Source: an uncultured Lachnospiraceae bacterium (lineage in GTDB: Bacteria; Bacillota; Clostridia; Oscillospirales; CAG-272). From it: a stretch of DNA of 59,377 nt. This document shows, one piece after another, positions 29,997 to 42,409 of the stretch. The notes under the pieces are model-generated. The model was not told the origin of the DNA. It saw only the letters and a list, made by a program, of their open reading frames with translations, and did no database searches. The stretch lies in assembly GCA_964464905.1 (NCBI GenBank), contig CAYXHC010000002.1, positions 1 through 59,377 on the forward strand, read 5' to 3'. How positions within the stretch are numbered: position 1 is the stretch's first letter; the number at the start of each line of letters is the position of its first letter. The position numbers and the translations under genes were made by a program.

Positions 29997-31067
29997 TTAT
30001 GCGTGTTTTTCAAGGTCCTCAGCGACCTTTCTGAAGCTTTCGTTGTCTCGTATGAAGTCAAATCTACCGTCAGCGAGAGACTGCAATCTGTTAGCACAGA
30101 CACTGCCCTTGTAATTTTTCACAACGCTGTCCGTTTTGTGCTTCATGCGGTTCATCATCGGCGCCGTGTAATCCATATCTTTCAGCTCAGCGGCGATAAC
30201 ACTGTACCATGCGCATTCTTCGAGTGCTTTTAACGTGTTTTCACTGTCGTTCATTTCCGCATACCTGAATGCGATCCCACAGTAGTAACGCGATAGATCG
30301 TAAGCGCCGAAGCCTACGTTGCCGTCTGAAAACAAACGCTTGAGTATGTCGATTGCAAATGTGTATGCTTCAATGGCTTCTTCGGGTGAAAATGGCGCTT
30401 TATAGATCATACCCGTTGCCGTCATCGCTGCCGTGCGGATAAGGGACATTATATAGCTCTGACAAGCTTCAACGCCCTCTTCTCCGTCAAGGATCGCACA
30501 TCTGAGATCATCCTTCGTCGTGTGAAAGGAGCCGCCCATATCGGCATAATACAGCGCCTTTTCCATGTCAATATTTTCATAGGTATAACATAGCAGCTGT
30601 ATGGCACTTTTTCTTTGTTCCGTGTCGTTTGATCTTTGCAAAAGCTCCTCTCCGAGAGCAATTATACGTTCCGCCTCTGCTTTTGGGCAGGGATACACCG
30701 CATCTCTGTTTATAGCTTGCATAAGTCCTTCGATAACACGGCAATCATTTGGAAATTCGGAATACGCCTTTTCCCATATTTCAAGGTTTTTCTGATTTTC
30801 ACCGTTTTGACGGCAGATCTTGCTTTGCCGCTGATATTCGGAGATCGTTTCCTCGATTCTTATTTGATCCACAGAAAGCAGTTCATCGATGGTTACGTCA
30901 AAGAAAAATGCTATTTTGGGCAGTAAGGTTATATCGGGAAAGCCTTCGCCTCGCTCCCACTTACCAACGGATTGAGGGGTGATTCCAAGATGGTTGGCAA
31001 GAGCTTCCTGTGTGATGCCTTTTCCGACTCTAAGTGAACGCAATTTGTCTTTTAAGTTGATGTCCAT
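29997..31067 (-). CDS. XRE-family HTH regulator, paralogue of 19559-20728
   Basis: 356 aa. The HTH reads ITQEALANHLGITPQSVGKWERGEGFPDITLLPKIAFFFDVTIDELL. Confidence 0.85.
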   Translation of the reverse strand: MDINLKDKLRSLRVGKGITQEALANHLGITPQSVGKWERGEGFPDITLLPKIAFFFDVTIDELLSVDQIRIEETISEYQRQSKICRQNGENQKNLEIWEKAYSEFPNDCRVIEGLMQAINRDAVYPCPKAEAERIIALGEELLQRSNDTEQRKSAIQLLCYTYENIDMEKALYYADMGGSFHTTKDDLRCAILDGEEGVEACQSYIMSLIRTAAMTATGMIYKAPFSPEEAIEAYTFAIDILKRLFSDGNVGFGAYDLSRYYCGIAFRYAEMNDSENTLKALEECAWYSVIAAELKDMDYTAPMMNRMKHKTDSVVKNYKGSVCANRLQSLADGRFDFIRDNESFRKVAEDLEKHA

Positions 31068-31238: not shown

Positions 31239-31697
31239 TTACTTATTTTCGATCGTAAGCGTCAGATTTGCGGGAGTGATACGCCTGAGCATATCATAGA
31301 GAAGCCCTGCCTTTTCCTCCGACGCAAGCGAAACGCTCACGGAAAGGGAACACGCTCCCGCGTCCGCAACAACCGAATAGCCGTTCTTGCCGCATAAAAC
31401 GTCAAGCTTTCGCTTGAGATTTCGCATAGTGAAGGGAAGCTCGCCTGCCGTCATCGTCATAAGCCGGAATCTGCGTTCGTCCTCGGTCTCGGAGCTTTTC
31501 GGCATCACTCCGTATTGCTTTTCGTGCCGCTTCAGCCAATCTCCTTTGGCAGTGTTCACGAAGAAGCCGTCGAGCATTCCGCCCACGTCCTCGTATGCTG
31601 CGGCAATAAATGTATCCACCACGTCTCCGATGGCGCAAAACTCACGTATCTCCGAAAATATGGGCGGTAAATAGGAAAGGTAGCTTTTTTGCATCAA
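31239..31697 (-). CDS. Baseplate-associated protein, DUF2313/XkdU(YmfQ)-like
   Basis: 152 aa with YLPPIFSEIREF...FFVNTAKGDWLKRHEKQYGV...ERRFRL, which matches the family pattern. Follows the baseplate J gene. Confidence 0.6.
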   Translation of the reverse strand: MMQKSYLSYLPPIFSEIREFCAIGDVVDTFIAAAYEDVGGMLDGFFVNTAKGDWLKRHEKQYGVMPKSSETEDERRFRLMTMTAGELPFTMRNLKRKLDVLCGKNGYSVVADAGACSLSVSVSLASEEKAGLLYDMLRRITPANLTLTIENK

Positions 31698-32785
31698 AGC
31701 ACCGTCACCTCCTTGAAAACGGGAACGTGATCCTCACCAAGCGTGATGTTACCGGTAACGTATGTGCCGTCGGAAACGGAATAAAACCTGGTGTTCGTAA
31801 CGTCGTCAACGCAACCGGAAGCGAGGATGTAGCTTTCAAGCTGTGAGATGCGAAGAACGGGAACCTCCGTCACTTCCCATTTTGACGCAACGGAATCGAT
31901 GTAAGTCTTAACCGCATCCGTAATGTAAGGCGCCGCCGTGTCAGCGTCCCATCCGTTGGCAAAGGTAAGCTTCGTTTCAACGGAAACGGGATATTCGGTC
32001 GCCCCCGTAACCGTTACCTTGTGACCGACGGGGGCAACTCCTGCGCCCTCACCGGAGTACATATCGGGATCGAGAAGTGATTTTACAGCAGAGATAACGT
32101 AAGCCGAAGGCGCACCTCCGTGAACTGCCTGAAGCACTATTTTGACAGTTCCGCCTCCGTTCCAGGCTGGATGCACCTTCACACCGCCAACTCCATCAAC
32201 AGCCTTTACGGAGTTGATGTAATCTGCCTTGTTGCCCCCGTAAGAAACGTTTGTCAACGCCGTGGAAACACGCTCTCGAAGTGAGTCGGTGTCTTCTTCG
32301 TCCGCGCCTCTGTAAATGACGGAGATGGCTTTTGATACGGACAGTCCCTCAATATAAGAAAGCGGGATCAGGTCGCCGGAAGTTCTGAGCGCAGGCTTTG
32401 ATCCTGCAGTGTCACACGTCAGCTCGTAAATGTAATAACCTGCTGACGAGTAAACAGCGTCGCCGCGGCTGTATGTGTATTCGTTGAGCGAGAATTTCGC
32501 CCCATCGGGGATCGCAACGTTGAATTGACCGTTTATACGGGTGTACGTTGCAGGCTCACGCTTGATCCCGAGGATCGAAGCGTGATGCAAAAGCGCGGTC
32601 TCGGATGCAGAATCTGGGAAGACGTCGTTGGCTATGCCGTCACAGAGTGAGTATAGCTTGGCGAGCTCCGCTGCCACCGGAGCAACCGCATCGTAAAAGA
32701 TAGAGCCGCATGCCGTGTCAATGTCATCGGGCGCGGCGGCAAGCATATCGCAGAGAATGTTCTCAAAGCTTTTGTTTTCAAACAT
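31694..32785 (-). CDS. Baseplate J-like protein (XkdT-like)
   Basis: 363 aa with an N-terminal GSIFYDAVAPVAAELAKLY...ALLHHASILGIKREPAT pattern. Confidence 0.8.
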   Translation of the reverse strand: MFENKSFENILCDMLAAAPDDIDTACGSIFYDAVAPVAAELAKLYSLCDGIANDVFPDSASETALLHHASILGIKREPATYTRINGQFNVAIPDGAKFSLNEYTYSRGDAVYSSAGYYIYELTCDTAGSKPALRTSGDLIPLSYIEGLSVSKAISVIYRGADEEDTDSLRERVSTALTNVSYGGNKADYINSVKAVDGVGGVKVHPAWNGGGTVKIVLQAVHGGAPSAYVISAVKSLLDPDMYSGEGAGVAPVGHKVTVTGATEYPVSVETKLTFANGWDADTAAPYITDAVKTYIDSVASKWEVTEVPVLRISQLESYILASGCVDDVTNTRFYSVSDGTYVTGNITLGEDHVPVFKEVTVL

Positions 32786-33131
32786 TAAAGACCTCCGTTA
32801 ATGTTTTTTGATTTTCGTGTGTATTCAGATGTACCGTCAGCTTTAGGATACCTTCGTCGAAGACGGCAGATATATCCGATACCTTAAAGTCATCTCCGCA
32901 GCGTTTCTCCACCTCCTCGGTGATCTGCCGTTTGAGCATCGAAACCGCGTAAGGTATGCGCGCGGAATAAAGAATTCTGCGTGATATGCCATAGGATCTG
33001 TCATAAATAGGGTGTTCGCCGCGTTCTGTTTCGAGCATTAAAAATATGTTGAGAAGTCCTGCGTCAATACCTGAGACGGTCCCCGCAAGACGGAATCCGT
33101 CGCCGTCTTTGATCAGTGAATATGTCTTCAT
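32778..33131 (-). CDS. Baseplate wedge protein, XkdS/DUF2634 (gp25-like)
   Basis: 117 aa. Assigned from size and its position between the XkdR-like and baseplate J genes. Confidence 0.5.
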   Translation of the reverse strand: MKTYSLIKDGDGFRLAGTVSGIDAGLLNIFLMLETERGEHPIYDRSYGISRRILYSARIPYAVSMLKRQITEEVEKRCGDDFKVSDISAVFDEGILKLTVHLNTHENQKTLTEVFNV

Positions 33132-33150
33132 TTATATGTGTTCCTTTCAT

Positions 33151-33444
33151 TCAATCACCGATAACACCAACGATAAGATATTTTTCGCCGCCAACGGCAC
33201 GGAACATAACGACCTTCGCTCCTGCTGTAAGCTTGTCGCGGAAGGATACCGTTCCTTCAACACCGTCTACGAGCGCGGCTTCATCACTGCCGGTGACGTG
33301 CTTCGGAACGATGATACGCGGCTCAGTTACGATAAGAGTCGGATCGATGCGAACCGATAAAGGTGAAGTGCTGCTGACGGTTCCGCAGATAATATCGGCT
33401 GAGATTTCGTTTTTATCGATTACGTCTGTTCGTTTGCTTTGCAT
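33151..33444 (-). CDS. XkdR/DUF2577-like baseplate protein
   Basis: 97 aa ending FRAVGGEKYLIVGVIGD, typical of this family. Syntenic position. Confidence 0.5.
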   Translation of the reverse strand: MQSKRTDVIDKNEISADIICGTVSSTSPLSVRIDPTLIVTEPRIIVPKHVTGSDEAALVDGVEGTVSFRDKLTAGAKVVMFRAVGGEKYLIVGVIGD

Positions 33445-33456
33445 AATCAGTCTCCT

Positions 33457-34362
33457 TTACACGGATGAGAGCGTAAGCTTCGCTGATGAACCGTAAAGGC
33501 CGTATATCAACTCCGACTCTTCACATATCATACGCTTTTTTTCGTCACCTATCAGAACATCAACGGCAGCACCGCTGCGGATCGGCATAACGAGATCGAT
33601 AGTCTCACACTTGACAGTCGTAAGCGGAAGAGCAGACGAAGAGAGTATTCCGGTGCCGGTAGCCGTCGCGTTTTCAACGAATGATAAAGTTCCGAGATAT
33701 GACAGATGTCCGTATCTTGCAATTGAGCCGTCATCCCTGAACTGATGATAAACACGCCCGTTTTCAGTAGCTTCTATAAGAGAAACGTCATTGTAAACGT
33801 TTTCGTCAATGCTTTCGGTCACGGTAAATTCACGGCATATATGAGGATATATGGCGATCCCCTGATTAAGCGAATCAGCGTCGGACAGACATATCTTGCC
33901 GAAGTCGTCGTATAAAACGTAGTCGCCATAGCCTGCCAAAGACGTAAGCGACAGCGCATTTCCGATTATGGAAAATAGCTCGCGTCCGTCGTCGATCTGC
34001 GCGCTTATCTTCATTCTTGTGTCAGCTATCACGCCCGTTGGGATCCCGTAGCCGTTACAAAGTATAGTCAGAAGCTCGCCTGCGGTCTTGTCACTGTACA
34101 GTATCGTCGTCTTGTTTTTGAAATATCGCAAAAGATCATAGGCGAGACATTCGTATCCGCTGTTCGTTTTAGAAACCGTGAATACCGTTCCCTTGAAAAT
34201 GCTTTTGCCTTCTCCATAGAATATTACGCTGTCTCCGACAGCCACCTTGTCAAGAGACTTGAAAGTGAATCTGCCCGGATTCAGTCCGCGTCGGGTATTG
34301 TAGCAGGCATCTCCGGACTGAATAACAGGGCTTCCGTTTATATATAGCGCCGATCTTTTCAA
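33457..34362 (-). CDS. XkdQ/YqbQ-like baseplate hub protein (gpD-like)
   Basis: The conserved body carries ECLAYDLLRYFKN...AGELLTILCNGYGI. A TTG start was chosen, overlapping the upstream TGA (TTGA) and following a GAGGTG RBS. The ORF-track ATG at 34473 lies inside the upstream gene. Confidence 0.6.
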   Translation of the reverse strand: MKRSALYINGSPVIQSGDACYNTRRGLNPGRFTFKSLDKVAVGDSVIFYGEGKSIFKGTVFTVSKTNSGYECLAYDLLRYFKNKTTILYSDKTAGELLTILCNGYGIPTGVIADTRMKISAQIDDGRELFSIIGNALSLTSLAGYGDYVLYDDFGKICLSDADSLNQGIAIYPHICREFTVTESIDENVYNDVSLIEATENGRVYHQFRDDGSIARYGHLSYLGTLSFVENATATGTGILSSSALPLTTVKCETIDLVMPIRSGAAVDVLIGDEKKRMICEESELIYGLYGSSAKLTLSSV

Positions 34363-34775
34363 CCTGACACCTCTGCCGTTTTGTAACGACGGGCTTTGAT
34401 AGTTACTGTTACGCCGCCCTCGTGATAAACGCTCATCATCTCTTCCGAAATGACCGTCATGTTTATGTCGCATATAACTCGGTCCTCATCGTCAACTCCC
34501 AAAAGCACGAGCTCAAAGGGAACTGCCAAGCGTGACATAAAGTGATCACTTACAAGATCGGGAGTGACAAGTACGCTGTCACCGTATACGTGTTCGGACG
34601 GAGCATCGGATACCGTAAGCTCAAGAGAAATTTTTACGGGTGCAGCAGGTGTGGCAAAAACGTGATAGCTCCCGTCCGAGATCGTTATGTAGTCAGAACC
34701 TCCTTCGGAAATGACGGATACAGATGACGGTGGCATAGGCATAAGAGTGCCGTCAATGTAAAGATAAAGCTTCAT
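34359..34775 (-). CDS. XkdP-position tail/baseplate protein without a recognisable LysM domain
   Basis: 138 aa. The pattern LPMPPSSVSV...ISLELT...PFELVLLG...MTVISEE...VTVTIKARRYK resembles, from memory, proteins found just upstream of XkdQ in clostridial myophage tails. Confidence 0.4.
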   Translation of the reverse strand: MKLYLYIDGTLMPMPPSSVSVISEGGSDYITISDGSYHVFATPAAPVKISLELTVSDAPSEHVYGDSVLVTPDLVSDHFMSRLAVPFELVLLGVDDEDRVICDINMTVISEEMMSVYHEGGVTVTIKARRYKTAEVSG

Positions 34776-34842
34776 CGTGTCCTCCTTTTACACGCATCGT
34801 GCGTAGAAATAGATATTTAATGATCTTCATAAAGCCTCCGTT

Positions 34843-36036
34843 TTATAGAGATGCAGATATCATAATTCCGTTAGGACGCGAGATGTGTGCATCTGTGACC
34901 GATACAGATACAGCACCGCCTTCATCGGCGGAAACCGAAACCGTAGGCGCAGTTGAAGATATACCGTATCTGCAATAAAGCTCCGAAAGTGAATCAGCAA
35001 TATCCTTTTGCAGATAAGAAACTCCTGCACCATTGGCTCGAACCACGCCAAGATAGCGATCATTGAAAATGCCGTTTATCCTGCGCAGCATTTCATCTTT
35101 CAGTCTCACCTTAAAATTGTCGGCAAGCTTGGTATCCTCGGAGCTGTTATTATCCCTGATAACGTAAGCGTCGCCGTTTGTGTAGGCAAGAACGAGCCTG
35201 TTGTAAGGCACCGTGGCTGCAGCATGCTCGTTGTCAAAGGCGGCGGGATCAAAGGAGCCTTCGTATCTTTCTCCTACAGCGCTTCGGTAAAATGGAAGAC
35301 TCGCCAGAAGACCGGCAATATAATATATCGCTCCTCTGTCACCGCCGCAGCAGGCAACCGACGTGATCGCAGCGGAGCCGGGTGCTGAGATCTCAGCCGC
35401 AGTGACTCCCTTTATAGTTCCGCCGTTACCGCGAATATCTTCGATGAAATCCGAAAATACGGCAACGATCGGCGCACTCGTTTCACCGGATACGATAATA
35501 TCAGACGTTACCGTAGACAATGTGTCAAGACACTCTTTGTAGTTGAATTCATTTATGATCATATCCTGCCCGCCCGTGAAAGGAATGCCAGACGTAATAA
35601 ATATCTCTGAATCGTAAAATATAACGTAATCGTTATCGGCAGGACGGCAGCCGCTCGGTACGCTCTGATCGTCAACGATAGCACCGTCAACGTAAGTCGT
35701 GATCAAAAAAACGCCGTCGGTTTCCTTGACACTGACGGTTATTCTGTTGCCGGAGGTGCCCTTGTATTTTGCGCGCCCGATAACTGATATGGCGTATTCG
35801 CCTCCGTGAGGGCGGCAACAGTAAACGCGCGAGGCTCTTTTCAGTATATCGGAAAGAGCGTCTCTCGCAGTATCGCTGAATAAACGCTGACTTTTAAGCG
35901 CGAAAGGATCGGTGAATTCTATGATCTCACCCGAAGGACCCCATCCGGTGTCAAGAACGACCGAAACGGTTCCGTTTCGTGCGTTATGTCCAATAATAAG
36001 ATCCGATACTTTTGTTTTCGATCCGTAAATATCCAT
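34843..36036 (-). CDS. Contractile tail sheath protein
   Basis: Sheath-like blocks: AKYKGTSGNRITVSV, YYIAGLLASLPFYRS, GDAYVIRDNNS and FKVRLKDEMLRRI...DRYLG. ATG at 36036 follows GAGGTG; the ORF-track TTG is at 36051. Confidence 0.7.
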   Translation of the reverse strand: MDIYGSKTKVSDLIIGHNARNGTVSVVLDTGWGPSGEIIEFTDPFALKSQRLFSDTARDALSDILKRASRVYCCRPHGGEYAISVIGRAKYKGTSGNRITVSVKETDGVFLITTYVDGAIVDDQSVPSGCRPADNDYVIFYDSEIFITSGIPFTGGQDMIINEFNYKECLDTLSTVTSDIIVSGETSAPIVAVFSDFIEDIRGNGGTIKGVTAAEISAPGSAAITSVACCGGDRGAIYYIAGLLASLPFYRSAVGERYEGSFDPAAFDNEHAAATVPYNRLVLAYTNGDAYVIRDNNSSEDTKLADNFKVRLKDEMLRRINGIFNDRYLGVVRANGAGVSYLQKDIADSLSELYCRYGISSTAPTVSVSADEGGAVSVSVTDAHISRPNGIMISASL

Positions 36037-36043
36037 TTTCACC

Positions 36044-36460
36044 TCAGCCAAGCGTTATTTTTACGTCAACGGACGCCATCGTGATGGGACTTTCGCCGTT
36101 GCTGCCGTATTCGAAAAAGAGCGACGGAAACGAATAAGCGGCTGTTACATCAAAATACCGTCCGCAATGACGGCACTCGTACTTCTGTACGGTCAGTTCC
36201 CGACCGCCAAGCGTGATCCGTCCGATAGCATTGAGTATACCTCCATCGTCACCGAGCATCATATCCGGTGAAAAATATCGGATCCTGAAAGACACCGTGC
36301 ATTCACCGCTGCCATCGGAGTATATTTTATCCGTCGAAAGAAAAAGCGTCCCCTCTGGAGCATCGGCAGGTATTGCACCTGCCGATGTGATAACGCTTGA
36401 TAACGTTGAAAGAGAATTTTTTAAAGCACTGAAAAAGCCGTAATCAGCGTCTCTTTTCAC
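36044..36460 (-). CDS. Hypothetical neck / tail-terminator candidate
   Basis: 138 aa. GTG start overlaps the upstream stop (GTGA) and follows AGGAGG. Assigned by position only, between the adaptor and the sheath. Confidence 0.35.
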   Translation of the reverse strand: MKRDADYGFFSALKNSLSTLSSVITSAGAIPADAPEGTLFLSTDKIYSDGSGECTVSFRIRYFSPDMMLGDDGGILNAIGRITLGGRELTVQKYECRHCGRYFDVTAAYSFPSLFFEYGSNGESPITMASVDVKITLG

Positions 36461-36837
36461 CAGCGTATCCTCCTGTATTTTTTCGCTCTGTCAAGACCGC
36501 GGCAGCGCATTTTGCCACACGCTGAAAGCTTGCGTTCAAGCTCCGTCGTGCCGGATGCGTATTTGAGCGAAAGATCACCGTCGCTTTTCGAGGTGACGGC
36601 TCCCTTTGCACCACCGTCGCCAAGAAGGGACGCTTCTGCATAATCGGCAGCCGAAATATCGGCAACAGACTCCAGAAGCTCGTCGGGCAATGTCTCTATC
36701 GCGCAAATAAGCAGTATCTCATCCGTAACGGAATCAATGATGGTATCAAGTATGCCCAGATCACATTCGCGGGGAGAGATGTGAAGGGAGATAAGCCGTT
36801 TTTCTATCCCCGCTTTTATCTTTCCGCGATAGTTCAT
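36457..36837 (-). CDS. Head-tail adaptor (gp6-like connector) candidate
   Basis: 126 aa, immediately after the capsid gene (TGATG overlap). Has the acidic helical N-terminus typical of adaptors. Confidence 0.45.
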   Translation of the reverse strand: MNYRGKIKAGIEKRLISLHISPRECDLGILDTIIDSVTDEILLICAIETLPDELLESVADISAADYAEASLLGDGGAKGAVTSKSDGDLSLKYASGTTELERKLSACGKMRCRGLDRAKKYRRIRW

Positions 36838-37874
36838 CAGCCGAGAGATATGATACGCGCAACGGGAATGAGCTTTTCGTCGATAACATCGCCGTTTTCG
36901 CTGGTGGCAAGCTCCCAGTTGGCGCCGTCGGAAAGTTCATCGTTGGTGGGGGAAAGCGTCGCCTGAGAGGACTTCACGTAGTCGAAGCCGAAGGGGTGAA
37001 GTACCTTGCGCTGACGGGAATAGAGAATGTCACAGCCGCCTTCCTCAGCGGGAGAACGATGCATCTCGTAGGGCACCTTTGCGCCGATGTTTTCGTAGAA
37101 GAAAGCACCCTCGCCAAGCGCGTAGGTGGTGTATACCGTGTTGCCGTCGCCGTCCTTTGATACGGGGAGACTGTCCGTAATAATGACGGACTTGCCGTTC
37201 CATGTGCCGATCGAAAGATCACGGGTGATACCGTCTTTGTCAGTGTAGGTGAGATAATTCATGAGCTGAAGATTCTCAAGGTTGGTTGCAACGGCGGAGT
37301 GCATAAGTACGGCACGGAACTTGCCCTTTGCAGAGCCGCAAGCGCGCTGGATCGCCGCGTTGAGAGAGGTGGCGCTGATCTGGGGGATCTCCTCGCCGGT
37401 AATATCGTAGGTGTGGGCGTCAACGAAATCAGCCTTCGCTTCATCGCCGCCATCGGCAAACATACCGCTGAGAATGGAGAGAAGAGTTGCTTCGTCAACC
37501 TCCTCCCAGTATTCCGCAACCTGCTCGGCAACGGTGTCCATATAGTCAACGCCCGCAATGTCACAAGCAAAATCGCGCTCGCTCCATGCGTTTGCGCGGC
37601 CGATCACCACGGCGCCGAACTCGTAACACGGAGTTTTCTGAGGAGTGATGTCACCAACACCGTCATAGTTCTGAGCAACGCCTGAAATCGCGCCGTAAAG
37701 AGGTACCTTGGCGTAAGCAGCATTGCCTGCACCGCGGAAAAGGGAACGGATCTCGCTGTTGCCGACGAAAACTCGGCGAGCAAGCAGCTCTCTCGTCTTC
37801 AAGGTAGGTACACGGCCAACGTAATCGCCGAATACTGCCGAATCAAAAATTTTAGAATCAAACTGTCCCTGCAT
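36837..37874 (-). CDS. Major capsid protein
   Basis: About 345 aa, following the scaffold gene. The start at 37874 (MQGQFD...) follows a GGAGA RBS; the ORF-track start at 37898 lacks one. Confidence 0.7.
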   Translation of the reverse strand: MQGQFDSKIFDSAVFGDYVGRVPTLKTRELLARRVFVGNSEIRSLFRGAGNAAYAKVPLYGAISGVAQNYDGVGDITPQKTPCYEFGAVVIGRANAWSERDFACDIAGVDYMDTVAEQVAEYWEEVDEATLLSILSGMFADGGDEAKADFVDAHTYDITGEEIPQISATSLNAAIQRACGSAKGKFRAVLMHSAVATNLENLQLMNYLTYTDKDGITRDLSIGTWNGKSVIITDSLPVSKDGDGNTVYTTYALGEGAFFYENIGAKVPYEMHRSPAEEGGCDILYSRQRKVLHPFGFDYVKSSQATLSPTNDELSDGANWELATSENGDVIDEKLIPVARIISLG

Positions 37875-37962
37875 ATATTTCTCCATTCTGCCGTTCATAA
37901 CGGCATAAAATTTATTTAGTATGTAATTAATTTCGCGGTCGCATTATCAAGCGTTCCGCAGA

Positions 37963-38382
37963 TCATTTGTACAGTCTCATATATTCGCTGTATGAAAGCT
38001 CTCCCGTATCGGAGATATCATCAGAAGCCTCAACGGGAGAGATCCCCACGAAGGTGTATACCGTCGTCTCGTTCTTCGTCTCGTCGCTCCCGAAAAGAAA
38101 GGGCATACTATCTTTAAGAGATGACACCGCCTCGGAAAGACCTGACGGTGTCCCGTCAAAGTCCTCACCGTCCCATTCGTAGCCAAGCACAGCAGAGGCA
38201 GCGCGGGTGTTTCGTGCACCGGCGCGCTCCAGCGCGCTTTCAACGGCAAAGCGGTATTTATCCTCAAGACGTCGTCTTTCGTAATCAGAGGTCACGGTGT
38301 CTAACTCCTCGGATAAGGCTGCAAGTATAATTTCTGCGTTGGCAGGCTCAATGCCAAGATCAATCAAAAAATCAATATTCAT
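37963..38382 (-). CDS. Capsid scaffolding protein
   Basis: About 139 aa, acidic and helical, lying between the portal and capsid genes. ATG at 38382 follows AAAGGAG. Confidence 0.5.
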   Translation of the reverse strand: MNIDFLIDLGIEPANAEIILAALSEELDTVTSDYERRRLEDKYRFAVESALERAGARNTRAASAVLGYEWDGEDFDGTPSGLSEAVSSLKDSMPFLFGSDETKNETTVYTFVGISPVEASDDISDTGELSYSEYMRLYK

Positions 38383-38428
38383 TAATAGGCTCCTTTTAGT
38401 GAAAATCAACTTGTATCACGGTGTAATT

Positions 38429-39769
38429 TTATGTAAGTCCGAGTCGTTCCAGCTCGTCGTCAACGTCGTGAACGAGAGGGTGAGACGCAACGAGGGTGCG
38501 TTTTGATAAAATATCAGCGGATGAATTGAGCGCTCCGACAGCCGCAGCCTCATTCACTAAAAGATCGCGGTTGAAGCGTATCTCGGCTTCGGAACAGCGA
38601 AAATCTCCTTTACCCGTGTAGAAAAGATAAGAGCGGATGTAGCCTATCCATTCGTCGATCGCGCATCCAAGCTCTGCTTCAAAGCCGTTTGCGTCAAGAT
38701 CAATGTCGGAATATATCGCCAGAATGTTCATCCGGTTAGGATTGCTTCCGAGACGCGAATCGTTGGAATCAAAGCCACGGCAGCATTCCACCAAAGCCTC
38801 GGAAAGCTGATTCTTCAGCGTTTCGTAGTTCGTTGCATCCACCTTTATCGAAAGAGTATCAACGCCGCCCTCGCCGCCTCCATCGGAGCGCACCTTCACA
38901 GCTCCGTAAGCGGCAAGATTGCGTCTGAATTCACCCAGATCCTCACCGTCAAAATTCTTCAGTACCAGAACGGTGTTTCTGCTGTTTTCCGACATATTGT
39001 CGCAAAAATCGGATTGAAGCTCGTTGAGTGCATCCTGAATACATTTTGCCCGTCTTATCATCGGGATCGCTCCGGCGTTATACTTTACCGGAATAACGGG
39101 AACACGGTCCCATCTGTAACACTCACCATCGTTATCCCTGAAATGATATGGCGTGTCAGCAACGAAACGAAGCTCGCCACCGCGGTATTCATATTCTTCG
39201 GTTCCGTTGCAGGTGTAAACGAAAACGCGCTTTTTTACGCATCGCTTTTTACCCTCGTAGTATTCTTCGGGGGAAACGCGCAAAAGCATATCGAGCTTCG
39301 TGTGTGCTGCGTCGTGCCAGAATGGCAAGCAGTTGGCCGAGTCGAATAAATAAAGCTTCAGTTCGCCCTTCTCATCGATGTAAGGGTGAAGCCAGGCAAT
39401 ACCGCATCCCATAGACTCGGTGGCGGCAAGACGCCAGAGCAGCTGCCCCTCCTTGCCGAAATATTTTTTTATTTCAGCGGAAAAAGCCTTGTCGGGCACG
39501 TTGCGTGTGAACGGCTTTCCCAATGAGTAATTTACCTTCTGGTCTATTATCCTCCCGTATTGATTGTTTACAATACGGGTGCAGGGAAGCTTGTCAAGAT
39601 TTATAACGTCGCCGTCAGCTCCGATAGCGGTACGATGACGTCGCAGAATGTCGTGTTCGCCGCGATAATATCGCTTTGCGTCACGAGCTTCCTTTCTTGC
39701 GTGGGATGCAAGAAAGGAAGCAGTTTCCGCCGAAAGCATACTTAAATAAGAATTTGTTATGTGTTTCAT
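38429..39769 (-). CDS. Portal protein (SPP1 gp6-like)
   Basis: 446 aa. An N-terminal YYRGEHDILRR...NNQYGRIIDQKVNYSLGKPF pattern is typical of this portal family. Confidence 0.8.
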   Translation of the reverse strand: MKHITNSYLSMLSAETASFLASHARKEARDAKRYYRGEHDILRRHRTAIGADGDVINLDKLPCTRIVNNQYGRIIDQKVNYSLGKPFTRNVPDKAFSAEIKKYFGKEGQLLWRLAATESMGCGIAWLHPYIDEKGELKLYLFDSANCLPFWHDAAHTKLDMLLRVSPEEYYEGKKRCVKKRVFVYTCNGTEEYEYRGGELRFVADTPYHFRDNDGECYRWDRVPVIPVKYNAGAIPMIRRAKCIQDALNELQSDFCDNMSENSRNTVLVLKNFDGEDLGEFRRNLAAYGAVKVRSDGGGEGGVDTLSIKVDATNYETLKNQLSEALVECCRGFDSNDSRLGSNPNRMNILAIYSDIDLDANGFEAELGCAIDEWIGYIRSYLFYTGKGDFRCSEAEIRFNRDLLVNEAAAVGALNSSADILSKRTLVASHPLVHDVDDELERLGLT

Positions 39770-39841
39770 TAAACCGCAGTTCCTCCTGTCGCGGTAAGAT
39801 TGCGTATTTCTGATGCTCGGAAAAGAGATAACGTAAAACGG

Positions 39842-41077
39842 TCAAAAACTGAAGTTCATACCGCTCGTCGCATCGGAAACGGCGTAACGCATCGCATCCA
39901 TCAAATGATCGTTTTTTCCGACCGGACGGTTGACGGCGTTGCCGCTGCTGTCCGTGTCCCAAACGTAACCGCGTATCTCTCCGATAAAATTTTTACAAAC
40001 AGGCGATATTACGATGTGGTTGCGTGCCACGGTGTCTATTCCGGAAAGAATGCTGCCATGCCTCTTCGACGAGGGCACGATGCGCCTTATCCCCATGGAT
40101 CGAAGCTCGTCAACAGATTTCGGCTCTGCTGAATCGGCAACGATGCGGCATCTCCCGTAGCCGCGCCCCTTGATAAGCGCCGCAAGACGATCGTTGGTCA
40201 GTCCCCGTTCGTATATTTCGTCGTAAACGAAAAGCTCCCGCCTTTCCGTAGACAAAAGACCGCAAAAAAGAGCGGTAGGGTCGTTGGTGTAGCCGAAATC
40301 AAGACCAAGCACCGGCAAAAAGCCATGCTTTACAAGAATATCGCGGTCGAATTCCCGTATTTCGTACGAAGGATAAACGAGACCGCTGACAGCACCCCAT
40401 TTGCCGAGTCCCGCCGTTCGGTAACGTTCGGGACGTTCACGCTTCATGGTCTCGAAAAGCGTAATGTCAGCCTCGTCAAGAAATTCGTTGGTCTTGTAGG
40501 TCGTCGTCATCCGTAAAACGTCGGGCGACTCGGGCGCATCAAAGAAGCGCCGCTTAAGCCAGTGCCCTTCGTTCCAAGGGTTGAAAGTTACCGTCAATTG
40601 CTTGAAATATCCGGTAGGTACGTACCCTCTTATAAGCTCGTCTATCATATCAAAGTCAGCCTCGTCTGAGATCTCAAAAGCCTCCTCGCACCAAAGCCAG
40701 CATAAAACTCCCCTTGAGACCGAAATGGACGTAAGCTTCATCGGATCGTCGAGTCCTTTGAAAAAGATTTTCTGCCCCGTGATTTTTCTCGTTATTTCGA
40801 GAGGGGATGTTTTGAATTCGAATTCTTTCAGCACACCGAGCCGCTCAGCCGCCCATTTAAGCTCCGTGTAGCACGAACGCTCAAGAGACGCGTAAGTGCG
40901 TCGTACCACCAAAAGATTTGCAAGCGGATATTTCAGTAAATGATAAATATACCAAAGCGCCGTCGTTTTCGACTTCTTCGAAGCACGAGAGCCCTTGATA
41001 ACGCGGTATCTTCCGCGAAAATTCCAGAATCTTTCGTAGCCTCTCCCAACGGTGCGGTATAGGTCAATCTTCTTCAT
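39842..41077 (-). CDS. Terminase large subunit (PBSX-type)
   Basis: Walker A-like KGSRASKKSKTTA and a C-terminal nuclease region. ATG at 41077 follows GAGGAAA; the ORF-track TTG is at 41125. Confidence 0.85.
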   Translation of the reverse strand: MKKIDLYRTVGRGYERFWNFRGRYRVIKGSRASKKSKTTALWYIYHLLKYPLANLLVVRRTYASLERSCYTELKWAAERLGVLKEFEFKTSPLEITRKITGQKIFFKGLDDPMKLTSISVSRGVLCWLWCEEAFEISDEADFDMIDELIRGYVPTGYFKQLTVTFNPWNEGHWLKRRFFDAPESPDVLRMTTTYKTNEFLDEADITLFETMKRERPERYRTAGLGKWGAVSGLVYPSYEIREFDRDILVKHGFLPVLGLDFGYTNDPTALFCGLLSTERRELFVYDEIYERGLTNDRLAALIKGRGYGRCRIVADSAEPKSVDELRSMGIRRIVPSSKRHGSILSGIDTVARNHIVISPVCKNFIGEIRGYVWDTDSSGNAVNRPVGKNDHLMDAMRYAVSDATSGMNFSF

Positions 41078-41552
41078 CAGAGTCTGTTTCCTCAGTAATG
41101 TCGGCAAGGAACTTCTCCTCGCCAACGAAAATTACACTATCGTGATCGTCACCCTCGCCGTTGAAAATGCCGTATCGACGCGCCAGCATTTCCGCTGCAC
41201 TCATCCGTTCTTTGACAGACGCGGATTTGTTTATAACGCGCGCGCACCGCTCTGTCTTACCTTCCTTGCCGGTCCTTTGCTCAACGACTACCACGGGGTC
41301 GTGAACGTCTCCGCGCATAACGGACGTCAGCATTTGCAGAATCTCTGTAGGATCTGCAACTGCACTCGGCCGATCAGCCTTAAGTTCAACGCCTTGTCCG
41401 CAGAGCTTCCCAAGCAGAGCGGAAGCGGCGCCGAGCCGTTTGTAACCGGCGTCTTTTGCTGCCTCTTCGGGGTCCATCCCCGATCTGTATAATTCCAAAA
41501 AACGTCGTTGTCTTTCGTTCAAATCGTTAATGATTCCTCCGTTCTCACCCAT
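41064..41552 (-). CDS. Terminase small subunit
   Basis: 162 aa with N-terminal LNERQRRFLELYRSGMDPEEAAKDAGY. Immediately upstream of the large subunit. Confidence 0.6.
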   Translation of the reverse strand: MGENGGIINDLNERQRRFLELYRSGMDPEEAAKDAGYKRLGAASALLGKLCGQGVELKADRPSAVADPTEILQMLTSVMRGDVHDPVVVVEQRTGKEGKTERCARVINKSASVKERMSAAEMLARRYGIFNGEGDDHDSVIFVGEEKFLADITEETDSDEED

Positions 41553-41636: not shown

Positions 41637-41933
41637 TCAAACGATCATTGTTCGGGCGGTGTACTTTTCACAGCGCCGCCGTGCATACTGTTCATCATAT
41701 TCTCCAAGGGCGAAAGCAACCTGCTGCCAGGTCATACCGTAAAGATAACGGAGCGTTAAAGCAGAACGGTCGAAATGATCGGTAACGCTCGAAATGCGAT
41801 CGTGAAAATCCTCATATCGTCGGGATAACTCGTCTGTACGCTTTTTCATATCGTTACGTAAGCGAAGTATACGCGCGTCATCCTCTCCGTCCGAGGTAAG
41901 CGACGCCTTTCTCAAAAGCTCGAGCTCGCACAT
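41637..41933 (-). CDS. Sigma-70 region-4-like HTH protein (candidate late-gene activator)
   Basis: 98 aa with LTLRYLYGMTWQQVAFALG, which resembles a sigma region 4 / RinA-ArpU-type HTH. Positioned upstream of terS. Confidence 0.45.
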   Translation of the reverse strand: MCELELLRKASLTSDGEDDARILRLRNDMKKRTDELSRRYEDFHDRISSVTDHFDRSALTLRYLYGMTWQQVAFALGEYDEQYARRRCEKYTARTMIV

Positions 41934-41985
41934 CTCTCTTTCGAGAAGACGAAGCTCGCTGCGGATGCCTTTTACGGTACGTAGG

Positions 41986-42270
41986 TTAATAGCGATCGCC
42001 CGATCTCATGACTTTTCCGGAAAACTCGGAAATTGCTTCCGTAACGGACGAAAATCCGCATATATCGAGGATCTCGGAAATGGAAAAGTTTTCGATGCAT
42101 TCGTCGCAAACGATTCCGTCGCCGTCTCCGTCGGGATTATATATGTAGCTTTGACCGTGAGAAATGATCTCACCGCAAAGCGAACAGCGAAGTGAGCCTA
42201 CGCTCCCTTCGTCAATGTCGAGCGGGCACCCGTCTATGTGCCCGAAATCGTAATCGCAAATGTCACACAT
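41986..42270 (-). CDS. Cys-rich (CxxC x3) small protein, first gene of the block
   Basis: 94 aa with CDIC, CSLC and CDEC pairs. A GGTGGTGA RBS lies 6 nt upstream. Confidence 0.5.
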   Translation of the reverse strand: MCDICDYDFGHIDGCPLDIDEGSVGSLRCSLCGEIISHGQSYIYNPDGDGDGIVCDECIENFSISEILDICGFSSVTEAISEFSGKVMRSGDRY

Positions 42271-42288: not shown

Positions 42289-42302
42289 AGAACAAATGTT
42301 CG
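42289..42302. promoter_or_regulatory. LexA-type SOS box 1
   Basis: AGAACAAATGTTCG (GAAC-N4-GTTC), 19 nt upstream of the ATG at 42270. Confidence 0.7.
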
Positions 42303-42317
42303 TATTTTGAGCGATGT

Positions 42318-42342
42318 AAAAACGCGCCGGGAGCGCGCGTTT
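42318..42342 (-). terminator. Terminator-like hairpin within the leader of the phage-like operon
   Basis: The minus strand reads AAACGCGC(7-nt loop)GCGCGTTT followed by TTTAC, about 10-35 nt downstream of the predicted transcription start. Confidence 0.5.
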
Positions 42343-42357
42343 CCACATCGTGCCTAT

Positions 42358-42386
42358 ATTATACCATAAATCGCCAAATAATTCAA
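42358..42386 (-). promoter_or_regulatory. Extended -10 sigma-A promoter of the phage-like operon
   Basis: The minus strand reads TTGAAT, 17-nt spacer, TATAAT, with the last three spacer bases TGG giving TGgTATAAT. Confidence 0.7.
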
Positions 42387-42395
42387 TAGTCAAAA

Positions 42396-42409
42396 AGAAC
42401 AAATGTTCG
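42396..42409. promoter_or_regulatory. LexA-type SOS box 2
   Basis: AGAACAAATGTTCG, identical to box 1 and 10 nt upstream of the -35. Its right half is part of the perfect 18-bp palindrome GTTCGTAAATTTACGAAC (42406-42423). Confidence 0.7.

What the first reader, a model, noticed from the sequence alone, without database searches (positions are those of the whole stretch)
34776..34842. Sheath gene abuts the XkdP-position gene: tube, chaperone and tape-measure genes are missing
In PBSX, P2 and Mu-type tails the sheath gene is followed by the tube gene, the chaperone (frameshift) pair and the tape measure. Here only 67 nt separate the sheath stop (34843) from the start (34775) of a 138-aa protein whose sequence pattern fits the protein normally found just upstream of XkdQ, after the tape measure. 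The gap holds only a 25-codon ORF (ATG at 34830, MKIIKYLFLRTMRV...) with its own GGAGG-like RBS. A sheath without a tube or a length ruler is not a known functional architecture. Three readings are possible: a clean internal deletion, tube/ruler functions supplied in trans, or one of the uncharacterised 138-aa proteins doing something unexpected.
Basis: partly seen in the sequence, partly recalled or inferred. Interest (0 to 1): 0.7.

Follow-up and report, generated by a model that had tools for sequence, protein, structure and literature searches.

The report
Tubeless, rulerless domesticated phage head–tail cluster
A bacterial chromosome carries a phage-derived gene set for a DNA-packaging head plus a contractile-tail sheath and baseplate. 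It has no tail tube and no length ruler, yet this odd layout has been kept intact by selection across many related bacteria, so it is a working domesticated element and not a broken prophage.

Summary
On the minus strand, the sheath gene (34843-36039) lies 67 nt upstream of a 138-aa gene (34359-34775).

- **The 138-aa protein is a tube initiator, not the tube.** It is a LysM-less homologue of the XkdP / phiCD508 gp61 / diffocin CD1367 "tube tail" protein (hhalign 93.8% against XkdP, 0.4% against the XkdM tube).
- **Three genes are absent.** Tube (XkdM), chaperone (XkdN) and tape measure are missing here and from every related locus examined. The closest complete phage, phiCT453A, has 4.3 kb holding them at this junction.
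- **This is not a recent deletion.** Seven independent loci of the same family (head proteins 62-87% identical) show the same junction, mostly at the same chromosomal site.
  - Synonymous divergence matches the flanking host genes.
  - dN/dS is 0.06-0.28 for every gene.
  - There is no integrase, replication, fibre or lysis gene.
  - Two conserved LexA boxes sit at the promoter.
- **Two nested lineages have lost the whole tail module** but keep the head genes under selection.

Best reading: an SOS-controlled, gene-transfer-agent-like element. Its tail is probably a stub, with the initiator ring capped directly by the terminator-like second 138-aa protein. Tube and ruler supplied from elsewhere in the genome cannot be excluded.

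The parts
42290..42408 (-). Control region. Two LexA (Cheo) boxes CGAAC-N4-GTTC at 42290-42301 and 42397-42408 flank a promoter-like site (TTGAAT-17-TGnTATAAT, 42358-42386). A leader hairpin followed by a T-run lies at 42322-42338.
   Evidence: Both boxes sit at the same relative positions in L010, L011, L026, L030 and L032. L029 has two boxes and L027 has one. Of 16 GAACN4GTTC sites in 200 kb searched, 15 lie in these upstream regions.
41986..42270 (-). 94-aa Cys-rich small protein, the first gene of the operon. Function unknown.
   Evidence: No Pfam hit. Conserved in L010 (85%) and L011 (69%). dN/dS 0.13.
41637..41933 (-). 98-aa protein with weak DUF1492 / sigma-70 region-4 similarity. It sits where PBSX-type elements carry the Xpf-like late activator, just upstream of the small terminase gene.
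   Evidence: E 0.005, below the Pfam cutoff. Positional analogy with PBP180 ORF6, annotated 'positive control sigma-like factor'. Conserved at 75-80%.
41064..41552 (-). Small terminase subunit.
   Evidence: Pfam Terminase_2, 1.7e-9.
39842..41125 (-). Large terminase subunit. The true start is probably about 12-15 codons inside the listed ORF.
   Evidence: Pfam Terminase_3 1e-52 plus Terminase_3C. dN/dS 0.07.
38429..39769 (-). Portal protein, SPP1 type.
   Evidence: Pfam SPP1_portal 1e-61. dN/dS 0.06.
37963..38409 (-). Scaffolding protein. The likely start is at 38382.
   Evidence: Pfam Phage_scaffold 2e-12.
36837..37898 (-). Major capsid protein. The likely start is at 37874, giving 345 aa.
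   Evidence: phrog_247 at 5e-80. 53.6% identical to the phiCT453A capsid protein. 85-88% identical across the family, with dN/dS 0.09.
36457..36837 (-). Head-tail adaptor.
   Evidence: phrog_132 at 2.7e-9.
36044..36460 (-). 138-aa protein 'B', probably a tail terminator / collar (gpU-like). Together with the adaptor it is one of only two neck genes, where related phages have four or more.
   Evidence: The structure model is low-confidence (pLDDT 52).
- Every named Foldseek hit is a tail terminator, tail completion or cap protein: lambda gpU, monocin cap, PVC cap, diffocin collar. PDB E 3e-3; BFVD E 2.5e-4.
- No similarity to the XkdM tube.
- Its C-terminal strand is missing in the two head-only lineages.
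34843..36039 (-). Contractile-tail sheath protein (398 aa), XkdK type. It lacks the N-terminal arm motif that is invariant in related phage sheaths.
   Evidence: hhalign 100%, columns 23-378 against 33-408. One search shows the GG(T/S)F..QNK.LPGAYINF motif is absent in all six family members. dN/dS 0.22-0.27.
34753..34842 (-). The 67-nt sheath-initiator spacer (34776-34842). It contains a 25-codon upstream ORF (34753-34830) that runs 23 nt into the initiator gene.
- The RBS, ATG and MKIIKYLFL core are conserved in the window, L002 and L001 (23 of 24 nt) although nearby dS is above 1.
- The spacer is only -4 to 37 nt in L005, L011, L027, L029 and L030, which have no such ORF.
34359..34775 (-). 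138-aa protein 'A', a tail tube initiator ('tube tail'). It corresponds to the N-terminal domain of XkdP / gp61 and has no LysM domain, like diffocin CD1367. It is not the main tube protein.
   Evidence: dN/dS 0.17-0.28 in three independent pairs.
33457..34362 (-). Baseplate hub (XkdQ/YqbQ, gp27-like), 301 aa. Its TTG start overlaps the stop codon of A.
   Evidence: Pfam YQBQ 8e-49. Gene calls in L001 and L002 show the same 4-nt overlap.
33151..33444 (-). Spike / needle tip (XkdR, DUF2577).
   Evidence: Pfam DUF2577 5e-14.
32778..33131 (-). Sheath initiator (gp25-like, XkdS).
   Evidence: Pfam Sheath_initiator 2e-9.
31694..32785 (-). Baseplate J / triplex protein (XkdT).
   Evidence: Pfam Baseplate_J 4e-44.
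31239..31697 (-). Mu gp48-like triplex protein (XkdU), the last gene of the cluster. No fibre or receptor-binding gene follows it.
   Evidence: Pfam Phage_Mu_Gp48 8e-20. The next ORF is the HTH regulator.
29997..31067 (-). 356-aa XRE-type HTH protein with a long C-terminal domain. It neighbours the cluster in the window and L010 only, and may be a lineage-specific regulator.
   Evidence: Pfam HTH_3 1.5e-11. 88% identical in L010 and absent from L011.

Best explanation
**Shown**
- The window holds an 11-kb minus-strand operon (about 31239-42408). It descends from the morphogenesis module of a PBSX / phiCT453A-like myovirus and has been domesticated by an uncultured Eubacteriales lineage.
- An ancient internal deletion removed the contiguous block tube (XkdM), chaperone (XkdN), tape measure (XkdO), and the LysM domain of XkdP. 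The sheath gene now abuts the tube-initiator gene.
- The element has no integrase, replication, lysogeny, fibre or lysis genes.
- It sits at the same chromosomal site (between nfo/EndoIV and DUF711/ComEC) in most relatives, and it has diverged in step with the host.
- Every gene is under purifying selection.
- The promoter carries two conserved LexA boxes.

**Inferred mechanism**
1. On SOS induction the cell makes capsids that package DNA by a headful terminase, as a gene transfer agent (GTA) does.
2. The tail is a stub, not a syringe.
   - The hub trimer (XkdQ) with its tip (XkdR) carries one hexameric ring of the initiator (A).
   - That ring is capped directly by the terminator/collar-like protein B, which docks to the adaptor and portal.
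   - The gp25-like initiator, the J/gp48 triplexes and one or very few sheath rings form an outer collar.
3. A tube of zero length needs no ruler and no ruler chaperones. That is exactly the set of genes lost.
For: **The junction and the identity of A**
-.
- The complete relative phiCT453A has the same gene order, with 4.3 kb (XkdM to tape measure) between sheath and XkdP.

**Ancient and conserved**
- Seven independent loci show the same sheath|initiator|hub order: the window, L001/L010, L011, L005, L030/L031, L029 and L027. Concatenated TerL+portal+MCP identity to the window is 62-87%. An eighth locus, L033, is cut off inside the sheath gene.
- Flanking host genes are the same.

**Co-divergence and selection**
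- Window vs L010: dS is 0.68-1.93 for cluster genes and 0.84-1.58 for flanking host genes.
- dN/dS is 0.06-0.12 for head genes and 0.11-0.27 for tail genes.
- Unsaturated pairs give the same picture: window vs L002 0.11-0.28, and L011 vs L005 gives sheath 0.22 and A 0.17.
- GC content matches the host. No tRNA and no att-like repeats were found.

**Host control**
- 15 of the 16 GAACN4GTTC sites in 200 kb lie in these promoter regions. This includes L027, which sits at a different chromosomal locus.

**Support for the stub-tail reading**
- Both end-pieces of a tube are kept (initiator A and terminator-like B), while the tube, the ruler and the chaperone are gone.
- The neck is reduced from four or more genes to two (compared).
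- The sheath has lost the N-terminal arm motif that is invariant in phage relatives. [quoted passage not shown]
- Inner-tail proteins evolve 3-5 times faster than head proteins but remain constrained.
- In diffocin the tube-tail ring sits directly on the hub, and the collar ties the tube to the last sheath ring (PMC10996793). A collar-on-initiator stack is therefore geometrically plausible.
- Two nested lineages (L026, L032) have dropped the whole tail module. There the B gene is followed directly by a terminator, B lacks its C-terminal strand, and the head genes stay at dN/dS 0.07-0.16.

**Precedent**
- GTA-like packaging is common in gut Ruminococcaceae, Oscillospiraceae and Christensenellaceae.
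- Faecalibacterium FpGTA makes roughly 40-nm capsids with no visible tail (PMC12946183).
Against: - No particle, transcript or packaged DNA has been observed. Function is inferred from conservation alone.
- No contractile-tail system is known to assemble a hub-initiator complex without a tape measure. A one-ring sheath has no precedent, and it is unclear why a 400-aa sheath would be kept for it.
- Fibre, receptor-binding and lysis functions are also missing in cis. If the particle is released and adsorbs, some components must come from elsewhere. FpGTA has a second operon of this kind. That weakens the argument that the tube and ruler are truly absent from the genome.
- The rest of each genome could not be searched.
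- The identity of B rests on a low-confidence model (pLDDT 52). Profile comparison with the pre-sheath proteins of phages was not significant.
- The model of A is only moderate (pLDDT 67).
Confidence: 0.42

Rival explanations
1. Trans-complementation. The particle has a normal long contractile tail. The tube, chaperone, tape measure, fibres and lysis proteins are encoded at a second locus of the same genome, or by a resident prophage, as in multi-locus GTAs.
For: - Fibre, receptor-binding and lysis genes are certainly not in cis, so some trans supply is likely anyway.
- FpGTA has a second operon 125 kb away holding baseplate, fibre, RBP, holin and endolysin genes (PMC12946183).
- The sheath remains under purifying selection.
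- Head-only lineages could take whole tails from elsewhere.
Against: - In the one split GTA read here (FpGTA), the second operon holds baseplate, fibre and lysis genes, not the tube-ruler core. From my own knowledge, the same is true of RcGTA.
- Moving an internal block out of an operon is less parsimonious than deleting it.
- The sheath's conserved N-terminal arm is lost and inner-tail proteins evolve fast. That is unexpected if a full contractile lattice must still assemble on a foreign tube.
- No XkdM hit was found in 222 kb of held family sequence. This covers only a small part of each genome.
Confidence: 0.3
2. The initiator doubles as the tube. Protein A has been repurposed to polymerise into a tube of several rings without a ruler. 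Length would then be set kinetically or by capping with B, as in T6SS, which has no tape measure.
For: - A has the tube fold, and Foldseek also matches genuine tube proteins such as phage 812, PVC and lambda gpV.
- It is the only tube-fold protein left apart from B.
- The sheath is retained and remains constrained.
Against: - The profile of A groups with initiators, not tubes.
- The sheath's inter-ring arm motif is lost.
- A is translationally coupled to the hub gene, with a weak or attenuated context in this lineage (an upstream ORF overlaps its start). That fits a low-copy baseplate protein better than a high-copy tube protein.
Confidence: 0.1
3. A phage-satellite-like element (similar to a capsid-forming PICI). 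It makes its own capsids and baseplate and hijacks a helper phage for the remaining tail parts and for lysis.
For: - The head-only variants (TerS, TerL, portal, scaffold, MCP, adaptor, connector-like B) resemble the packaging module of capsid-forming islands.
- Fast evolution of the tail-interface proteins could reflect adaptation to changing helper phages.
Against: - No integrase, excisionase, replication or att features were found.
- The element sits at a fixed chromosomal locus, and its dS matches that of host genes.
- It is controlled by host LexA, not by a satellite repressor.
Confidence: 0.07
4. A plain decaying prophage remnant. A deletion removed the tube-to-ruler block, and the remaining genes are non-functional leftovers.
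For: - Many essential virion genes are missing.
- One relative (L033) has a split TerL gene.
- Two lineages have lost the whole tail module.
Against: - The same junction occurs in seven lineages down to 62% head-protein identity, with all ORFs intact.
- dN/dS is 0.06-0.28 at dS up to and beyond saturation.
- The promoter and its LexA boxes are conserved.
- Composition is fully ameliorated to the host.
Confidence: 0.03

Closest known systems
PBSX-type defective prophages and their complete relatives (Bacillus PBSX/PBP180, Clostridium phage phiCT453A, phiCT9441A, Streptococcus EJ-1)
   Same: - Gene order is the same: (sigma-like factor)-TerS-TerL-portal-scaffold-MCP-neck-sheath(XkdK)-...-XkdP-XkdQ-XkdR-XkdS-XkdT-XkdU.
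- MCP is 53.6% identical to that of phiCT453A, and the sheath is about 25% identical.
- As I recall, PBSX is a chromosomally fixed, SOS-inducible element that packages host DNA. This was not checked here beyond, which reports 13.4-kb chromosomal fragments.
   Different: - This element lacks the XkdM tube, the XkdN chaperone, the tape measure, the LysM domain of XkdP, two or more neck genes, the SPP1-gp7-like minor head protein, the fibres and the lysis cassette.
- It is 11 kb, against 28 kb for the PBP180 record.
Minimal Gram-positive contractile baseplates: diffocin (CD1367-CD1372) and phiCD508 (gp61-gp66)
   Same: - The six-protein baseplate set is identical: tube tail/initiator, hub, spike tip, sheath initiator and two triplex proteins (PMC10996793; PMC11948020).
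- A resembles CD1367 in length (138 vs 140 aa) and in lacking LysM. CD1367 is also its best PDB sequence hit.
   Different: - Both reference systems have a tube (CD1364 in diffocin) and a full-length tape measure (CD1366; gp59 in phiCD508).
- Diffocin has 32 sheath-tube layers.
- Diffocin has no head. This element has a head but no tube and no ruler.
Gene transfer agents (RcGTA, CcGTA, and especially Faecalibacterium FpGTA)
   Same: - A phage-derived structural operon without replication or integration genes.
- Vertically inherited, host-regulated, compact (about 10-11 kb), and missing functions in cis.
- FpGTA particles show no visible tail (PMC12946183).
   Different: - FpGTA is described as podovirus-like, and no sheath is mentioned.
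- From my own knowledge, RcGTA keeps its tube and tape measure in the main cluster.
- No packaging or transfer data exist for this element.
Type VI secretion systems
   Same: A sheath and baseplate that work without a tape measure (my own knowledge).
   Different: - T6SS has a dedicated tube protein (Hcp), is membrane-anchored, and has no capsid.
- There is no sequence relationship beyond the shared contractile-injection folds.

Membership tests
XkdP / gp61 / CD1367 tail tube initiator ('tube tail') | Sequence-profile homology to the N-terminal tube-like domain of XkdP-type proteins | tested here: met
   - hhalign of A3 against A6: 93.8%, E 1.7e-7, columns 1-135 against 1-136.
- The A3 HMM hits XkdP-position proteins in six IMG/VR myovirus contigs at 1e-9 to 1e-15.
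- The top PDB sequence hit is CD1367, E 0.095, full length.
XkdP / gp61 / CD1367 tail tube initiator ('tube tail') | Tube-like beta-sandwich fold | tested here: met
   AF2 model with pLDDT 67 and pTM 0.61. The top Foldseek hits are diffocin 8v3w chains T and G and phiCD508 9gb2_S (gp61), E about 1e-4, probability 1.0.
XkdP / gp61 / CD1367 tail tube initiator ('tube tail') | Gene lies immediately upstream of the XkdQ-type hub gene | tested here: met
   A 4-nt overlap with the YqbQ gene in the window, L001, L002 and L007. The two genes are adjacent in all family loci.
XkdP / gp61 / CD1367 tail tube initiator ('tube tail') | C-terminal LysM peptidoglycan-binding domain (present in XkdP and gp61, absent in CD1367) | tested here: not met
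   A is 138 aa with no Pfam LysM hit. The domain is optional in this family, because diffocin CD1367 (140 aa) also lacks it.
XkdP / gp61 / CD1367 tail tube initiator ('tube tail') | Forms one hexameric ring between the hub trimer and the first tube ring | not testable with these tools
   This needs a multimer prediction or cryo-EM.
XkdM / DUF2001 major tail tube protein | Sequence-profile homology to XkdM-type tubes | tested here: not met
   - hhalign of A3 against A5: 0.4%.
- hhalign of B (A7) against A5: 0.3%.
- The XkdM HMM finds nothing at E<=1 in 222 kb of family loci, but finds the tube in every control phage contig at 1e-45 to 1e-69.
Contractile tail sheath (XkdK type) | Profile homology across the sheath core domains | tested here: met
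   hhalign 100%, E 1e-45, 355 aligned columns. phrog_279 at 3e-23.
Contractile tail sheath (XkdK type) | Conserved N-terminal extension (GG[TS]F..QNK.LPGAYINF) that takes part in the inter-subunit handshake | tested here: not met
   The motif is invariant in seven phage sheaths. In all six family sheaths it is replaced by a shorter, variable N-terminus.
Contractile tail sheath (XkdK type) | C-terminal beta-hairpin / extension | tested here: inconclusive
   The last 20 or so residues fall outside the hhalign match, but they keep a similar hydrophobic pattern (RPxxIxVSAxL against PxxAMEKLYMTVxV).
Tail terminator / collar (lambda gpU-like) | gpU-like fold | tested here: inconclusive
   - The model of B has pLDDT 52.
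- Foldseek's named hits are all terminators, caps or tail-completion proteins, at E 2.5e-4 to 3e-3 and TM about 0.5.
- Profile comparison with phage pre-sheath proteins aligns over the full length but is not significant.
Gene transfer agent / viriform (domesticated phage-derived element) | Structural and packaging genes only, with no integrase, replication or lysogeny module | tested here: met
   The flanks are housekeeping genes. No tRNA or att repeats.
Gene transfer agent / viriform (domesticated phage-derived element) | Vertical inheritance with the host and purifying selection | tested here: met
   Same locus and same flanks in six lineages. Cluster dS is close to flank dS. dN/dS is 0.06-0.28.
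Gene transfer agent / viriform (domesticated phage-derived element) | Control by host regulators | tested here: met
   Two conserved LexA boxes at the promoter. This is sequence evidence only.
Gene transfer agent / viriform (domesticated phage-derived element) | Particles package random host DNA and transfer it | not testable with these tools
   This needs induction, sequencing of DNA from purified particles, and transfer assays.
Phage satellite (capsid-forming PICI type) | Integrase, att sites, its own replication module and helper-dependent excision | tested here: not met
   None of these genes or sites is present. The chromosomal site is fixed and the element has co-diverged with the host.

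The most novel reading that the evidence does not exclude
A contractile-tail lineage has been reduced by domestication to a tube-less, ruler-less stub. A baseplate with its initiator ring is capped directly by the terminator and wrapped by a vestigial sheath collar, and this stub is attached to a DNA-packaging capsid. The element is an SOS-controlled GTA-like particle in uncultured gut or anaerobe Eubacteriales. It can lose even this stub and still be maintained as a head-only element. That would be a new virion architecture, a 'podovirus made from a myovirus'. It would also be a natural experiment on which parts of a contractile tail are dispensable.
Probability: 0.35. Interest if true: 0.85.

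Novelty: new variant of a known kind. Interest (0 to 1): 0.68.

Why it matters
- **It challenges an assembly rule.** Tail assembly models hold that the tape measure and tube are obligatory for any sheath-bearing tail outside T6SS. Here is a sheath+baseplate+capsid gene set that selection has kept for a long time without either. Either a new minimal tail architecture exists, or a core tail block can be outsourced to another locus. Both outcomes would be new.
- **It gives a candidate locus for an open observation.** GTA-like DNA packaging has recently been seen in gut Clostridia whose GTA genes are still unknown (PMC12946183). This family is a concrete, LexA-controlled candidate.
- **It offers a natural series of reduction.** The steps run from a complete phage (phiCT453A-like), to the tubeless cluster, to the head-only cluster. 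This series can be used to study stepwise domestication.

Tried and rejected
**Hypotheses rejected**
- **A is the missing tube.** This was my first guess, from its position after the sheath and its tube-fold Foldseek hits. Profile comparisons rejected it.
- **B is the tube.** Rejected: no similarity to XkdM, and its fold hits are terminators.
- **The 25-codon ORF is a general feature or a deletion scar.** Rejected. The spacer ranges from -4 to 77 nt across lineages, and the ORF exists only in the window / L002 / L001 sub-lineage. It looks like a duplicated RBS plus 5' end of the initiator gene.
- **Recent strain-specific deletion.** Rejected.

**Searches that found nothing**
- Direct Pfam, PHROG and PDB sequence searches with A or B alone.
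- The search for related loci with the A family alignment, and later with the six-sheath alignment, failed for lack of a conserved stretch.
- Scans of metagenome contigs and viral contigs with the MCP alignment.
- The viral-contig scan with the sheath alignment gave only ordinary complete myoviruses at 24-27% identity.
- Cluster look-ups gave no organism names, so taxonomy stays at 'Eubacteriales MAG'.
- Literature searches found no description of this family.
- No tRNA and no att-like flanking repeats.
Full report
**1. The observation**

The region lies in a minus-strand operon. Pfam and PHROG scans identify the genes below.

| Gene | Coordinates |
|---|---|
| TerS | 41064-41552 |
| TerL | 39842-41125 |
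| SPP1-type portal | 38429-39769 |
| Scaffold | 37963-38409 |
| Major capsid protein | 36837-37898 |
| Head-tail adaptor | 36457-36837 |
| Unassigned 138-aa protein 'B' | 36044-36460 |
| Tail sheath | 34843-36039 |
| Unassigned 138-aa protein 'A' | 34359-34775 |
| XkdQ/YqbQ hub | 33457-34362 |
| DUF2577 | 33151-33444 |
| gp25-like sheath initiator | 32778-33131 |
| Baseplate J | 31694-32785 |
| Mu gp48-like | 31239-31697 |

- The sheath stop and the start of A are separated by exactly 67 nt.
- The rest of the window is ordinary chromosome: the leu operon, ABC transporters, ComEC, DUF711, nfo, MTHFR/MetH and FBPase.

**2. What the two 138-aa proteins are**

*Protein A*
- A has only three close homologues among 5.8 billion clustered proteins. 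A full HMM scan of 1.84 billion representatives found six further relatives of similar length. The family is rare.
- An AlphaFold model (pLDDT 67) has a tube-type beta-sandwich. Foldseek returns only tube-fold proteins, headed by diffocin 8v3w chains and phiCD508 9gb2_S.
- I first read this, together with the position after the sheath, as 'A is the tube'. That reading was wrong.
  - The PDB chain 9gb2/9g8s is gp61, 'tail tube initiator'.
  - The best PDB sequence hit of the A profile is diffocin CD1367, 'tube tail'.
  - Against small alignments built from phiC2, PBP180, EJ-1 and phiCT9441A, the A profile matches the N-terminal domain of XkdP-type proteins at 93.8% (E 1.7e-7, full length). It matches XkdM tubes at 0.4%.
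  - As an independent check, the A HMM hit the gene between tape measure and XkdQ in six IMG/VR myovirus contigs (1e-9 to 1e-15). It never hit their XkdM gene.
- In diffocin this protein forms one hexameric ring on the hub, just below the first tube ring (PMC10996793).

*Protein B*
- B gave a poor model (pLDDT 52).
- Every named Foldseek hit, in both PDB and BFVD, is a tail terminator, tail-completion, cap or collar protein.
- It shows no similarity to XkdM.

**3. What is missing**

Reference phages share one gene order:
- four or more neck genes, sheath, XkdM, XkdN, (extras), tape measure, XkdP, XkdQ, XkdR, XkdS, XkdT, XkdU, fibres.

The closest complete phage by capsid protein is phiCT453A (53.6% identity). 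It has 4.3 kb between the sheath stop and the XkdP start.

Compared with that layout, this element lacks:
- the whole sheath-to-XkdP block (XkdM, XkdN and the tape measure);
- the LysM domain of XkdP;
- at least two neck genes;
- fibres and lysis genes;
- integrase and replication genes.

An XkdM HMM finds nothing at E<=1, and no cluster holds an ORF of 500 aa or more, in 222 kb of held family sequence.

**4. The layout is conserved, not a recent accident**

Family loci were found through A, the sheath and the capsid protein.

| Locus | Concatenated TerL+portal+MCP identity to window | Layout |
|---|---|---|
| L001/L010 | 87% | sheath, initiator, hub |
| L011 and L005 | 77% | sheath, initiator, hub |
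| L030/L031 | 67% | sheath, initiator, hub |
| L027 | 63% | sheath, initiator, hub (different chromosomal locus) |
| L029 | 62% | sheath, initiator, hub |
| L033 | not included in the concatenated set (MCP alone 66%) | cut off by the contig end inside the sheath |

- Sources.
- Most of these loci sit between nfo/MBL on one side and DUF711/ComEC on the other, as in the window.
- Window vs L010: dS of cluster genes (0.68-1.93) matches that of flanking host genes (0.84-1.58).
- dN/dS is 0.06-0.12 for head genes, the same as host genes, and 0.11-0.27 for tail genes.
- Two unsaturated pairs agree:
  - window vs L002: A 0.28, hub 0.26, J 0.11;
  - L011 vs L005: sheath 0.22, A 0.17, B 0.14.
- GC content equals the host's. 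There are no tRNAs and no att-like repeats.
- A relic would not keep 14-16 ORFs intact over this distance.

**5. Regulation**

- The 300-nt region upstream of the first gene holds two LexA/Cheo boxes (CGAACATTTGTTC) flanking a good promoter-like site. A hairpin plus T-run lies in the leader.
- The two boxes occupy the same relative positions in six lineages.
- One box is present in L027, which sits at a different chromosomal locus. The boxes therefore belong to the element and not to nfo.
- 15 of the 16 such motifs in 200 kb are these.
- The operon is predicted to be SOS-induced through the host repressor.

**6. Head-only derivatives**

- In L026 and L032 the operon ends after B with a strong terminator, and host genes follow. 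The entire tail module is absent.
- A tree of TerL+portal+MCP nests these two inside the tail-bearing lineages, so the tail was lost secondarily.
- The two lineages are 79% identical to each other in head proteins, with dN/dS 0.07-0.16. The head module therefore stayed under selection after the tail was lost.
- Their B proteins lack the C-terminal strand that is conserved where a sheath is present.
- In diffocin the collar's C-terminal strand makes the handshake with the last sheath ring (PMC10996793). This fits B being the collar/terminator.

**7. The sheath**

- The family sheath aligns to phage sheaths over the core, columns 23-378 against 33-408.
- It lacks the N-terminal motif GG(T/S)F..QNK.LPGAYINF, which is invariant in seven phage relatives.
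- The sheath, A, B, the hub, the tip and gp25 are 31-46% identical between the window and L011. MCP is 85% and TerL 79%.
- The inner-tail proteins are constrained, but much less than the head.

**8. Interpretation**

*Firmly supported*
- This is an ancient, fixed deletion in a vertically inherited, LexA-controlled, phage-derived element of the GTA / PBSX kind.

*Inferred mechanism*
- The genes that remain are the two end-pieces of a tube (initiator and terminator), the six-protein minimal Gram-positive baseplate, and a sheath without its inter-ring arm.
- The genes that were lost are exactly those needed to build and measure a tube.
- The simplest coherent model is a stub: hub, then the A ring, then the B ring, then adaptor and portal, with a short sheath collar outside.
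- FpGTA of Faecalibacterium makes 40-nm DNA-filled capsids without visible tails and has a second structural/lysis operon (PMC12946183). It is a precedent both for very short-tailed GTA-like particles in this bacterial group and for components encoded in trans.
- Because fibres and lysis genes are missing in cis here as well, a second locus probably exists. Whether it also carries a tube and a ruler is the key unknown. I could not test it, because only +/-10 kb of each relative was accessible.

*Probabilities*

| Explanation | Probability |
|---|---|
| Stub tail | about 0.4 |
| Trans-supplied tube and ruler | about 0.3 |
| A polymerising as a ruler-free tube | about 0.1 |
| Satellite-like hijacker | about 0.07 |
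| Relic | about 0.03 |

**9. Novelty**

- No paper in the held library describes this family.
- It belongs to a known kind, the domesticated phage-derived particle. Its tail gene set, a sheath and baseplate with no tube or tape measure, is maintained by selection and has no described counterpart.
- The head-only derivatives add a second unusual state.

Noticed in passing
window 42290-42301 and 42397-42408 (cluster on the - strand): Two LexA/Cheo boxes (CGAACATTTGTTC) flank the operon promoter. They are conserved in position in L010, L011, L026, L030 and L032, and are also present in L029 and L027. Of 16 GAACN4GTTC motifs in 200 kb, 15 are these.
   Followed up: yes
window 42322-42338 (- strand): A GC-rich hairpin followed by a T-run (GCGCGCTCCCGGCGCGT TTTT) sits in the 5' leader, between the promoter and the first gene. 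It could be an attenuator or antitermination point.
   Followed up: no
window 34753-34830 (- strand); L002 7-66; L001 9934-10023: An upstream ORF, MKIIKYLFL..., lies in the sheath-initiator spacer.
- Its RBS, ATG and first 8-9 codons are 23/24 nt identical between lineages whose neighbouring genes have dS above 1.
- It ends at or just inside the initiator start codon.
- It is absent from more distant family members.
- It resembles a duplicated 5' end of the initiator gene and may throttle translation of the baseplate genes.
   Followed up: partly
L026 5761-11840 and L032 5412-11270: Head-only versions of the element at the same chromosomal site. The operon stops after the B gene with a strong terminator, and no tail genes are present. 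The head genes are still under purifying selection (dN/dS 0.07-0.16).
   Followed up: yes
L026 11448-11840, L032 10875-11270, compared with window 36044-36460: In the head-only lineages protein B lacks the conserved C-terminal strand (M..V...IT) and carries a 10-aa internal insertion. This co-varies with the absence of the sheath.
   Followed up: partly
window 34843-36039 and family sheaths (A11): The sheath lacks the N-terminal GG(T/S)F..QNK.LPGAYINF motif that is invariant in related phage sheaths. The N-terminus is shorter and variable.
   Followed up: partly
L033 6063-7298: In one relative (GCA_965296565.1) the large terminase gene is split into 88-aa and 299-aa ORFs. This is either a frameshift pseudogene or an assembly error.
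   Followed up: no
L027 5509-16640: One family member sits at a different chromosomal locus, near rplJ/rplL and next to a PemK-type toxin gene.
- It has an extra 168-aa ORF after the gp48-like gene.
- No separate gp25-like gene was called.
- It has a 4-nt overlap between sheath and initiator.
   Followed up: no
window 29997-31067 (- strand): A 356-aa XRE-type HTH protein with a long helical C-terminal part is adjacent to the cluster. It is 88% conserved in L010 but absent from L011, L026 and L032. It might be a lineage-specific (RNPP-like?) regulator.
   Followed up: no
window 48752-49477 (+), 50422-51384 (-), 51392-51982 (-): Three ORFs of 241, 320 and 196 aa have no Pfam family, about 7-10 kb from the cluster. 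They were not examined for phage-related functions such as fibres or lysis.
   Followed up: no
window 36837-37898; phage hits H23-H31: After phiCT453A, the next closest capsid relatives are C. difficile phages phiCD38-2, phiCD111 and phiCD146 at about 47% identity. From my own knowledge these are siphoviruses, which was not checked here; if so, this head type travels with different tail types.
   Followed up: no
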